Sequence record: PV340561
Source of the DNA: Escherichia phage PhiR41_1
Reading direction: 5' to 3' (one strand)
DNA: 64,000 nt
In this document: piece by piece, positions 45,557 to 45,753 of the stretch
Layout: each line of letters opens with the position of its first letter
Numbering within the stretch: the first letter of the stretch is position 1
Position numbers and translations under genes: made by a program
The notes under the pieces: model-generated
What the model saw: only the letters and a program-made list of their open reading frames with translations
Told to the model about the DNA's origin: nothing
The model's database searches: none

Positions 45557-45581
45557 TCGGTCTGGGAGCTTATTTTAAAGA

Positions 45582-45636
45582 CCTGCTTCTGTATATAAAT
45601 AATAAATAACTTATTAAATATATATACAGAAGCAGG
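45582..45636. terminator. long AT-loop hairpin (perfect 16-bp stem CCTGCTTCTGTATATA)
   Basis: Same stem as 13435-13487; nested within outer arms GGTCTGGG/CCCAGACC; followed by two motif A copies (45672-45716). Confidence 0.5.
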
Positions 45637-45753
45637 CTTAATAAGACATGCCCAGACCTAATTAAACACCTCAGAAAACAAGTTGGTTAGTAGATGCAGT
45701 AAACAAGTTGTTTTAGAGCGCATGGACGCGCTCTGTGTGTTTTAGAGGGATCT

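What the first reader, a model, noticed from the sequence alone, without database searches (positions are those of the whole stretch)
45559..45658. Large nested palindrome before the packaging module, with a sibling after dam
A perfect 16-bp stem CCTGCTTCTGTATATA with a 23-nt AT loop (45582-45636) is nested inside outer arms GGTCTGGG/CCCAGACC. Nearly the same stem (15 bp, one mismatch) recurs at 13435-13487. Such long, repeated hairpins are more than simple terminators and could be a pac or cos-associated site, bidirectional terminators, or recognition sites for a structure-specific protein.
Basis: seen in the sequence. Interest (0 to 1): 0.45.

Follow-up and report, generated by a model that had tools for sequence, protein, structure and literature searches.

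The report
Conserved three-copy intergenic hairpin, phage-plasmid
The nested palindrome is real and is one of three conserved copies of a hairpin that marks operon ends in SSU5-like phage-plasmids; it most likely acts in the RNA as a terminator-type or processing hairpin, and nothing supports a role as a DNA packaging site.

Summary
There is a perfect 16-bp stem (45582-97/45621-36) with a 23-nt AT loop, outer arms GGTCTGGG/CCCAGACC, and a sibling at 13435-13487. The window is an E. coli SSU5-like phage-plasmid. Complete relatives carry three copies, all in gene-sense orientation and about 25-30 nt after a stop codon: after an 88-aa gene before terS, after dam, and before a helicase-primase operon (outside the window). 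The stem, its spacing and the outer boxes are conserved across Escherichia, Salmonella, Klebsiella, Enterobacter and Yersinia. At least five fully compensated arm variants exist, so base pairing is selected. The other two copies carry a U-tract (29/40 and 40/46 variants) and look like sense-direction intrinsic terminators. The flagged copy never does (0/41). One clade lost the 5' arm at two loci and has ordinary terminators right beside the remnant. The pac/cos idea is not supported: there are three copies, and the SSU5 and Cyrano records open inside the loop in the same way that draft contigs break at another copy. The best reading is an RNA-level terminator-family hairpin, here without a release signal, acting as a pause, processing or stabilising element. 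A DNA-level protein-binding role is not excluded. The element is undescribed and of modest interest.

The parts
45559..45566 (+). Outer 5' arm GGTCTGGG (TCTGGG box), starting 3 nt after the stop codon of the 88-aa gene
   Evidence: TCTGGG lies within 45 nt upstream of the core in 37/41 variants of this locus, against 12 of 1422 background bins.
45569..45574 (+). Middle helix, 5' side: CTTATT, pairing with AATAAG at 45640-45645
   Evidence: MFE and centroid fold. This helix differs in sequence between lineages, for example GAGAG/CTCT(C/T) in SSU5-type copies.
45582..45597 (+). Core 5' arm CCTGCTTCTGTATATA
   Evidence: The arm is nearly invariant in 127 unique homologous copies.
45598..45620 (+). 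AT-rich loop. An apical mini-helix TAATAA (45600-05) pairs with TTATTA (45611-16) around ATAAC. In relatives the centre is the small palindrome TAAGTnACTTA.
45621..45636 (+). Core 3' arm TATATACAGAAGCAGG. The A at 45628 compensates the T at 45590; most E. coli relatives have G here, giving a T.G opposition.
45640..45645 (+). Middle helix, 3' side: AATAAG
45651..45658 (+). Outer 3' arm CCCAGACC (CCCAGA box)
   Evidence: CCCAGA lies within 45 nt downstream of the core in 38/41 main, 27/40 sibling and 19/46 third-copy variants, against 9 of 1422 background bins.
13435..13487 (+). Sibling hairpin after dam: 5' arm 13435-50, 3' arm 13472-87, with a T.G opposition at stem position 9
13489..13496 (+). 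T-tract (TGTTTTGT) following the sibling stem, which makes that copy terminator-like
   Evidence: At least 5 T in 8 nt in 29/40 variants of this locus.
13505..13514 (+). CTCCCAGACC box downstream of the sibling. A second CCCAGAC lies at 13548-54, and the inverted partner GTCTGGGAG lies at 13347-55 inside the dam coding sequence.
11669..11703 (+). Ordinary intrinsic terminator that shares the stem base of the family (AAAGCCTGCTT...GAAGCAGGCTTT, then CTTTT). It may be an evolutionary relative.

Best explanation
The flagged structure is one of three paralogous copies of a roughly 100-nt intergenic element specific to SSU5-like phage-plasmids. The element acts in the sense-strand transcript as a long, interrupted hairpin at the end of a transcription unit. 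Its parts are an outer TCTGGG/CCCAGA helix, a variable middle helix, a 16-bp core and an AU-rich apical helix. Two copies are followed by a U-tract and work as one-directional intrinsic terminators or insulators. These are the copy after dam and the copy in front of the helicase-primase operon. The copy in front of terS has the same hairpin but lacks the U-tract. It should therefore pause RNA polymerase without releasing it efficiently. It would also give the read-through transcript a stable double-stranded segment, which could be a 3'-end protecting structure or an RNase III-type processing site between the upstream ParB-nuclease/ABC-ATPase operon and the late packaging operon. What is shown: the structure, its copy number, its orientation, its position after stop codons, its conservation, the compensatory changes and the U-tract distribution. 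What is inferred: that the selected structure is RNA rather than DNA, and what happens at it (termination, pausing or processing).
For: 1. The window is an SSU5-like phage-plasmid: 98.7% identical to Escherichia phage CMS-2020a and 99.2% to plasmid NZ_CP027369.
2. There are three copies per complete genome, all in gene-sense orientation and about 25-30 nt after a stop codon.
3. The copies are present at the same three loci in Escherichia, Salmonella, Klebsiella, Enterobacter, Citrobacter and Kluyvera. Yersinia pMT1 has two hairpin places and lacks the context of the third locus.
4. Base pairing is selected. In 60 distinct arm pairs, 92.3% of cells are paired, against 30-50% when the partner is slid by 1-3 columns. 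Six pairs show double changes, and the covariation score exceeds 499/500 shuffles.
5. Fully compensated arm variants exist: CTTCCG/CGGAAG, CTTCTG/CAGAAG, CTTTCG/CGAAAG and CGTCTG/CAGACG, plus the divergent CCTTGCTCCCATA/TATGGGAGCAAGG.
6. Non-Watson-Crick cells are mostly G.U on the sense strand: 94, against 26 that would be G.U only on the antisense strand. The remodelled hairpin in plasmid pVH1-2-1 folds only with sense-strand G.U pairs.
7. A T-tract follows the stem in 29/40 sibling variants and 40/46 third-copy variants, although the surrounding sequence diverges. An upstream A-tract is rare.
8. In the pVH1-2-1 clade the 5' arm is lost at two loci, and a canonical GC-stem plus T-run terminator lies immediately downstream at both. 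This suggests functional replacement.
9. At the third locus the upstream flank is hypervariable while the hairpin and the downstream operon stay constant, as expected for an insulator in front of that operon.
10. The conserved, imperfect long-range outer helix is typical of RNA and unlikely for a DNA cruciform.
Against: 1. The flagged copy has no U-tract in 0/41 variants, so canonical termination cannot be its function. What the hairpin does there is inference.
2. The primary sequence of the arms, the loop centre (TAAGTnACTTA) and the arm spacing (27 +/- 2 nt between the 14-nt arms) are far more conserved than a mere RNA helix needs. They are shared by three paralogous loci across genera, which hints at a sequence-specific partner.
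3. The sense bias of G.U rests on few independent events. C.A oppositions occur in widespread sibling variants.
4. In the pVH1-2-1 clade the 3' half (TATTAAATATATATAGGAGCCAGGC) is kept in the same derived form at all three loci even without a 5' arm. That suggests either a function of the sequence itself or gene conversion between copies.
5. The same genome makes plentiful use of ordinary short terminators, so the need for this special design is unexplained.
6. There are no transcript-end data.
Confidence: 0.5

Rival explanations
1. The three palindromes are cis-acting DNA sites bound by a plasmid- or phage-encoded protein. They could be a dispersed centromere of the kind recalled for the N15 prophage, whose partition sites are inverted repeats scattered through the genome. 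They could instead be origin or primosome-loading sites, or sites of a global regulator. In this reading the palindromic symmetry reflects a dimeric binder or a cruciform.
For: The arms, loop centre and arm spacing are nearly invariant at three paralogous loci across genera, while the flanks diverge. The derived 3' half is identical at all three loci of pVH1-2-1 although the 5' arm is gone at two of them. One copy lies just downstream of a type Ib parA and small ribbon-helix-helix-like parB pair and just upstream of a helicase-primase operon. The flagged copy keeps the hairpin without a terminator tail. The loop orientation is flipped in some lineages without loss of the element.
Against: The conserved outer and middle helices are imperfect and partly lineage-specific in sequence. 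That fits RNA folding better than a protein site or a cruciform. T-tracts are conserved on the sense side only. The region upstream of parA carries a different repeated operator-like motif (AGAAAACAAGTTGTTT) and nothing like the hairpin arms. That other motif occurs about 20 times in the window and is the better candidate for a global regulator or centromere-binding site. GC skew is monotonic and gives no origin signal. No candidate binding protein was identified: the neighbouring proteins have no informative family or structure match.
Confidence: 0.25
2. The hairpin upstream of terS is, or belongs to, the packaging recognition or cleavage site (cos or pac) of the phage.
For: It lies 118 nt upstream of the terS-like gene, where cos sites of many siphoviruses lie. 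The GenBank records of SSU5 and Cyrano are linearised inside its loop: record position 1 corresponds to window position about 45620.
Against: There are three near-identical copies per genome, at intervals of about 28, 34 and 48 kb. A cos-type terminase would cut at each of them. Joining the ends of the SSU5 record reproduces the relatives' sequence with no missing or duplicated bases. That is what an opened circular assembly gives. Draft contigs also break inside the third copy of the hairpin (L177, L189) and just before the sibling (L116, L152), so a break there is an assembly effect of a repeated palindrome. The paper that re-deposited Cyrano reports no end mapping; that its record was opened to match SSU5 is inferred from the two records starting one base apart. 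The large terminase has only distant (about 25%) relatives of mixed packaging types, so it gives no support. The hairpin is retained in Yersinia pMT1 plasmids.
Confidence: 0.04
3. The element is a selfish or neutral repeated palindrome (MITE- or REP-like). It spread to three intergenic sites and is kept uniform by gene conversion, with no function beyond incidental hairpin formation.
For: It is about 100 bp long with terminal inverted boxes (GGTCTGGG/CCCAGACC) and an AT-rich centre. The copies evolve in concert within lineages. The third copy sits at a hotspot of cargo insertion that includes a GIY-YIG endonuclease gene.
Against: It is fixed at the same three orthologous loci in all lineages sampled, and no empty sites were seen. 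It is absent from other phages: only the 11 SSU5-like records among 50,697. It is almost absent from chromosomes: 2 of 749 places in 5426 E. coli genomes. There is no convincing target-site duplication. Compensatory changes and conserved T-tracts show selection on structure and context.
Confidence: 0.07
4. The AT-rich centre plus the 3' arm is a promoter for the downstream operon, recognised by host RNA polymerase with a phage factor. The palindrome would then arise from two back-to-back promoters.
For: The 3' half alone is conserved at all three loci in the pVH1-2-1 clade. Each copy precedes an operon. TATATA-rich sequence lies next to the arms.
Against: The sigma-70 scan finds only weak 9/12 matches. 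In pVH1-2-1 a canonical terminator follows the half element before the next gene. No RNA polymerase or sigma factor gene is annotated in the complete relatives. A different repeated motif with a -35-like TTGTTT is the better promoter or operator candidate.
Confidence: 0.05

Closest known systems
Rho-independent (intrinsic) transcription terminators
   Same: It is a stem-loop with a G+C-rich base in the sense transcript, placed a few tens of nucleotides after a stop codon. Two of the three copies are followed by a U-tract on the sense side only. A canonical terminator in the same window (11669-11703) shares the stem base GCCTGCTT/AAGCAGGC.
   Different: The flagged copy has no U-tract (0/41). 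The stem is unusually long (16 bp plus an apical and two outer helices), and its upper half is pure A/T. The sequence is conserved as a three-copy family across genera, unlike ordinary terminators, including the dozen other terminators in this window.
RNase III processing signals between cistrons of phage T7 mRNAs (the R0.3, R0.5, R1 ... series; comparison from general knowledge)
   Same: Both are a family of paralogous, sequence-related, long interrupted hairpins. Both lie on the sense strand in intergenic regions of co-directional phage operons and have more than 20 bp of near-continuous duplex.
   Different: No cleavage data exist here, and RNase III determinants were not tested. T7 sites have a characteristic internal loop that is not obviously present. 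Two of the copies here also carry terminator tails.
Dispersed inverted-repeat centromere sites of the linear phage-plasmid N15 (SopB sites; comparison from general knowledge)
   Same: Both are a few palindromes scattered through a phage-plasmid genome, near replication and late-gene regions. The element here encodes a ParA/ParB pair, and one copy lies just downstream of it.
   Different: As recalled from general knowledge, N15 sites are short contiguous palindromes bound by a helix-turn-helix SopB. Here the arms are 16 bp separated by 23-27 nt, the partition protein looks like a small ribbon-helix-helix type, and the par promoter region carries a different motif. Sense-side T-tracts and RNA-like outer helices have no counterpart in N15.
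cos sites of lambda- and HK97-like phages
   Same: It lies just upstream of the small terminase gene and has partial two-fold symmetry.
   Different: There are three copies per genome, there is no evidence of ends, and the other copies lie in non-packaging contexts.

Membership tests
Intrinsic (Rho-independent) terminator | Stable stem-loop with a G+C-rich base in the transcript, just downstream of a gene and in the sense orientation | tested here: met
   The fold is -51.4 kcal/mol, z = -8.8. The core starts 25 nt after the stop at 45554-56. The stem base is CCTGC/GCAGG.
Intrinsic (Rho-independent) terminator | U-rich tract immediately 3' of the stem (at least 5 T in 8 nt, starting 0-2 nt after the stem) | tested here: not met
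   At the flagged locus 0 of 41 variants pass; the window copy reads CTTAATAA. At the other two loci 29/40 and 40/46 pass. Those copies qualify and this one does not.
Intrinsic (Rho-independent) terminator | Transcript 3' ends at the site | not testable with these tools
   No RNA 3'-end data were available.
cos / pac packaging site | Unique site in the genome | tested here: not met
   There are three copies in NZ_CP027369, at 3645-3699, 32033-32085 and 65559-65613. The median is 3 places per E. coli genome that has the element.
cos / pac packaging site | Coincides with the ends of virion DNA | not testable with these tools
   Only indirect evidence exists. The SSU5 and Cyrano records open in the loop, but contigs break in the other copies too, and no end mapping is reported.
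cos / pac packaging site | Adjacent to the terminase genes | tested here: met
   It lies 118 nt upstream of the terS-like gene. terL follows (Pfam Terminase_6N, E 3e-9).
RNase III processing signal (T7 type) | At least about 20 bp of interrupted double-stranded RNA in the sense transcript between cistrons | tested here: met
   The predicted structure has 8 + 6 + 3 + 16 + 6 pairs. This is a prediction only.
RNase III processing signal (T7 type) | RNase III-dependent cleavage | not testable with these tools
   This needs RNA end mapping in rnc+ and rnc- hosts.
Dispersed plasmid centromere (N15 type) | Several copies of one palindrome dispersed in a replicon that encodes ParA/ParB | tested here: met
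   There are three copies. The ParA-like ATPase matches Pfam MipZ, AAA_31 and CbiA, and is followed by a 117-aa partner.
Dispersed plasmid centromere (N15 type) | The same motif serves as the operator of the par operon or is bound by ParB | tested here: not met
   The region upstream of parA contains AGAAAACAAGTTGTTT and no hairpin arm. Binding itself is not testable here.
Protelomerase target (telRL) | Perfect palindrome through its centre, a single copy, a linear replicon and a protelomerase gene | tested here: not met
   The loop is asymmetric. There are three copies. The complete relatives are circular records with no protelomerase annotated.
MITE / REP-like mobile palindrome | Variable presence among relatives, many genomic copies and target-site duplications | tested here: not met
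   It is fixed at three orthologous loci. 747 of 749 places are on plasmids. It is absent from non-SSU5 phages. No clear duplication flanks the element.
Any Rfam RNA family | A match at or near the gathering score | tested here: not met
   Only generic hairpin (microRNA precursor) matches appear, far below their thresholds: best 27 bits against a threshold of 119.

The most novel reading that the evidence does not exclude
The three palindromes are not merely RNA hairpins. They would be a dedicated set of DNA sites (or RNA sites read by a specific protein) that link plasmid maintenance with the lytic programme. Examples are a dispersed centromere or replisome-loading sites as in N15, or terminators read through by a sequence-specific antiterminator on induction. 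That would explain why the arms, loop centre, spacing and outer CCCAGA boxes are frozen across genera and evolve in concert within a genome.
Probability: 0.25. Interest if true: 0.55.

Novelty: new member of a known kind. Interest (0 to 1): 0.3.

Why it matters
SSU5-like phage-plasmids are among the commonest phage-plasmids of Enterobacteriaceae. The hairpin itself is found in 259 of 5426 complete E. coli genomes. Their transcription, lytic replication and packaging are essentially uncharacterised. This element gives three precisely placed, testable landmarks: the boundaries in front of the late operon, in front of the helicase-primase operon, and after dam. It also has a practical consequence. 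The repeated palindrome breaks short-read assemblies, and it has fixed the arbitrary start of the reference SSU5 record. That start should not be read as a genome end. If the element turns out to be read by a specific protein, it would be a handle on how these elements switch between plasmid and phage life.

Tried and rejected
1. Rfam scan of the region at E up to 10 gave only spurious microRNA-like hairpin matches.
2. The sigma-70 and terminator consensus scan does not see the element, because its loop limit is too small. It found only weak promoter-like hexamers, plus a separate terminator-like hairpin at 45714-45735.
3. Literature searches found no description: SSU5 with terminase, cohesive ends or PhageTerm; the arm sequences themselves; pMT1/pHCM2 with inverted repeat. 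The SSU5 genome announcement and the Gilcrease and Casjens paper are not held.
4. The terminase large subunit was used to guess the packaging type. Its only relatives are about 25% identical and of mixed types (T5-like, Jersey-like, Thermus P23-45), so this is uninformative.
5. A 14-nt pattern scan of viral contigs for the divergent arm returned only random hits. A two-arm pattern found only the known copy. The other copies in that divergent genome (L167) therefore could not be examined. BLAST of that locus against plasmids found nothing.
6. Cumulative GC skew of the whole plasmid is monotonic and gives no origin signal.
7. The protelomerase-site idea was considered because a record starts inside a palindrome. 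It was rejected because the replicons are circular, there are three copies and the centre is asymmetric.
8. The integron attC idea was rejected: there are no R'/R'' core sites, and the paper checked says nothing relevant.
9. An apparent fourth arm in an Enterobacter plasmid lies inside an acidic low-complexity coding region and is probably chance.
10. Neighbouring proteins (88-aa, terS-like, 246-aa, 117-aa) gave no informative Pfam, PHROG or PDB match. The 246-aa protein lies outside the window and could not be submitted for structure prediction.

Full report
THE OBSERVATION

The sequence is exactly as described.
- The core arm CCTGCTTCTGTATATA (45582-45597) pairs perfectly with TATATACAGAAGCAGG (45621-45636) around a 23-nt A/T loop.
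- GGTCTGGG (45559-66) and CCCAGACC (45651-58) form outer arms.
- The sibling at 13435-13487 has the identical 5' arm and a 3' arm with one T.G opposition.

Chance does not explain it. The 16-mer with up to 3 mismatches occurs four times against 0.39 expected. The region folds at -51.4 kcal/mol, z = -8.8 against shuffles.

Both hairpins lie about 25 nt after the stop codon of a + strand gene. One follows an 88-aa gene and precedes a terS-like gene and terL. The other follows a Dam methylase.

WHAT THE WINDOW IS

The window is 98-99% identical to Escherichia phage CMS-2020a and to E. coli plasmid NZ_CP027369. It is about 80% identical to Salmonella phage SSU5, Klebsiella phage-plasmids and Yersinia pestis pMT1-type plasmids. 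It is therefore an SSU5-like phage-plasmid, about 110 kb, circular as a plasmid, with nearly all genes on one strand.

A THIRD COPY AND A FAMILY

The complete plasmid has three copies. The third lies outside the window. It sits between a ParA-like ATPase with a 117-aa partner and a 246-aa gene followed by a DnaB-like helicase and a primase. All three copies are in gene-sense orientation.

I collected the three loci from viral contigs through the flanking proteins. This gave 41, 40 and 46 unique sequences.

The hairpin is present at all three loci in Escherichia, Salmonella, Klebsiella, Enterobacter, Citrobacter and Kluyvera. Yersinia pMT1 keeps two copies.

The element is found in 259 of 5426 complete E. 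coli genomes. Of 749 places, 747 are on plasmids, the median is three per genome, and none is annotated. Among 50,697 phage records it is found only in the 11 SSU5-like ones. Rfam has nothing like it. No paper in the library prints its sequence or discusses it.

IS THE STRUCTURE SELECTED?

The arms are nearly invariant: CCTGCTTC[C/T]GTATA.
- On 60 distinct arm pairs, 92.3% of cells form standard pairs, against 30-50% when the partner is slid by 1-3 columns.
- Six pairs show changes on both sides, and the covariation score is reached by only 1 of 500 shuffles.
- Fully compensated versions exist: CTTCCG/CGGAAG (SSU5 type), CTTCTG/CAGAAG (this window), CTTTCG/CGAAAG (a Klebsiella sibling) and CGTCTG/CAGACG (an Enterobacter sibling).
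- In a divergent clade the arms are CCTTGCTCCCATA/TATGGGAGCAAGG.

Pairing is therefore under selection.

The outer boxes are also real.
- CCCAGA lies within 45 nt downstream in 38/41, 27/40 and 19/46 variants of the three loci.
- TCTGGG lies within 45 nt upstream in 37/41, 20/40 and 12/46 variants.
- The background is under 1% of bins.

The middle helix changes sequence between lineages but is still there.

RNA OR DNA?

Several things point to the sense transcript.
- Non-Watson-Crick cells are mostly G.U on the sense strand: 94, against 26 that would be G.U only on the antisense strand. The independent events behind these counts are few.
- The remodelled hairpin of plasmid pVH1-2-1 folds only with sense-strand G.U pairs.
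- The long-range helices are imperfect.
- There is a one-sided T-tract. At least 5 T in the 8 nt after the stem is found in 29/40 sibling variants and 40/46 third-copy variants, even though the surrounding sequence diverges. An A-tract before the stem is rare.

Those two copies therefore look like sense-direction intrinsic terminators.

A clade represented by pVH1-2-1 has lost the 5' arm at exactly these two loci. At both, an ordinary GC-stem plus T-run terminator lies immediately downstream. That reads as functional replacement.

At the third locus the upstream flank is hypervariable, with different cargo including a GIY-YIG endonuclease gene. The hairpin and the downstream operon are constant. 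This fits an insulator in front of the replication operon.

THE FLAGGED COPY IS DIFFERENT

None of its 41 variants has a T-tract. It cannot be an efficient canonical terminator. I infer that it pauses polymerase and leaves a stable duplex in a read-through transcript, acting as a 3'-end protecting or RNase III-type processing structure between the upstream operon and the late operon. This step is inference.

Between it and terS lie two operator-like palindromes and a second, ordinary terminator-like hairpin (45714-45735). These probably carry the actual control of late transcription.

WHY NOT PAC OR COS?

The idea looked attractive at first. The GenBank records of SSU5 and Cyrano both begin inside this loop. 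Four facts remove that support.
- The paper that re-deposited the re-annotated Cyrano genome reports no mapping of virion DNA ends. I infer that its record was opened to match SSU5, because the two records start one base apart in the loop.
- Joining the SSU5 ends reproduces the relatives' sequence without loss or duplication.
- Draft contigs break inside the third copy (L177, L189) and just before the sibling (L116, L152) in the same way. The break is what a repeated palindrome does to assemblers.
- Three copies 28-48 kb apart are incompatible with a unique packaging site.

The terminase gives no information on packaging type.

WHAT REMAINS UNEXPLAINED

The primary sequence of the arms, the loop centre TAAGTnACTTA and the arm spacing are conserved far beyond what a helix requires. 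The copies change in concert. In pVH1-2-1 the derived 3' half TATAGGAGCCAGGC is identical at all three loci even where no 5' arm remains.

The same genome has a dozen ordinary terminators, so this special design needs a reason. The reason could be gene conversion among repeats, or a protein that reads the sequence as DNA or RNA. I give a DNA-level site about 0.25.

Against the centromere version: the par promoter region carries a different motif, and that motif is repeated about 20 times in the window.

VERDICT

This is a real, conserved, lineage-specific and undescribed element. It most likely belongs to a known kind, terminator-type RNA hairpins at operon boundaries. The flagged copy is a tail-less variant. 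It is not a packaging site on present evidence. Interest is modest (0.3). It would rise if a specific reader protein exists.

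Noticed in passing
window 45673-45687 and 45698-45716; also 15896, 16625, 21172, 26255, 30174-30243, 32452, 32936, 33841, 34606, 40714 and others: A palindromic motif AGAAAACAAnTTGTT(TTCT) occurs 25 times (up to 2 mismatches) against 3.25 expected. It usually lies just after an ordinary terminator and before the next gene, and twice between the hairpin and terS. It also lies upstream of parA in the related plasmid (L008 about 4795-4812). It looks like the operator or -35 region of a set of co-regulated promoters and is a good candidate for the binding site of the element's master regulator.
   Followed up: partly
window 45714-45735 (tail to 45745): A conserved GC-rich hairpin TAGAGCGCATGGACGCGCTCTG followed by TGTGTTTTAG lies immediately before the terS ribosome-binding site. 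It is terminator-like, so the late operon may be controlled by antitermination or attenuation. It is conserved in all lineages, including the divergent pVH1-2-1.
   Followed up: partly
L001/L002 (SSU5 JQ965645 ends), L003/L004 (Cyrano OV696614 ends), L177, L189, L116, L152: The reference SSU5 record, and with it Cyrano, is linearised inside the loop of this hairpin. Draft contigs also break inside or next to the other copies. The repeated palindrome is an assembly breakpoint, and the record start should not be taken as a genome end.
   Followed up: yes
L171-L250 (third-copy locus); L005, L378, L379: The flank immediately upstream of the third hairpin copy is hypervariable, with at least ten unrelated sequences. 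One is a LEM-3-like GIY-YIG endonuclease gene inserted in the opposite orientation. This is a cargo-insertion hotspot bounded by the hairpin.
   Followed up: partly
L375-L377 (NZ_CP027801 pVH1-2-1), record 89702, 40374, 17345; L160-L166, L169: One Klebsiella clade has lost the 5' arm at two of the three loci. It keeps an identical 3' half (TATTAAATA..TATAGGAGCCAGGC) at all three and has canonical terminators right next to it. At the third-copy locus the new terminator is itself flanked by CCCAGA ... TCTGGG boxes in the reverse order.
   Followed up: partly
window 11669-11703 and 12710-12753: Two further intergenic hairpins were seen. One is an ordinary terminator that shares the stem base GCCTGCTT/AAGCAGGC with the family. 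The other is a perfect 13-bp inverted repeat AAAACGCGCCAGA/TCTGGCGCGTTTT with A- and T-tracts on both sides, so it looks bidirectional, just upstream of dam.
   Followed up: no
L009 8731-12022 (NZ_CP027369 48731-52022): The near-identical plasmid carries a full methionine-tRNA ligase gene (metG) and apbC among the phage genes. These are housekeeping-type genes on a phage-plasmid.
   Followed up: no
L010 8081-10420; L380 3699-6041: A 2.3-kb gene is annotated as a LAGLIDADG homing endonuclease in the E. coli plasmid and as an intein-containing RecA recombinase in the Enterobacter relative. The element's recombinase therefore appears to carry an intein.
   Followed up: no
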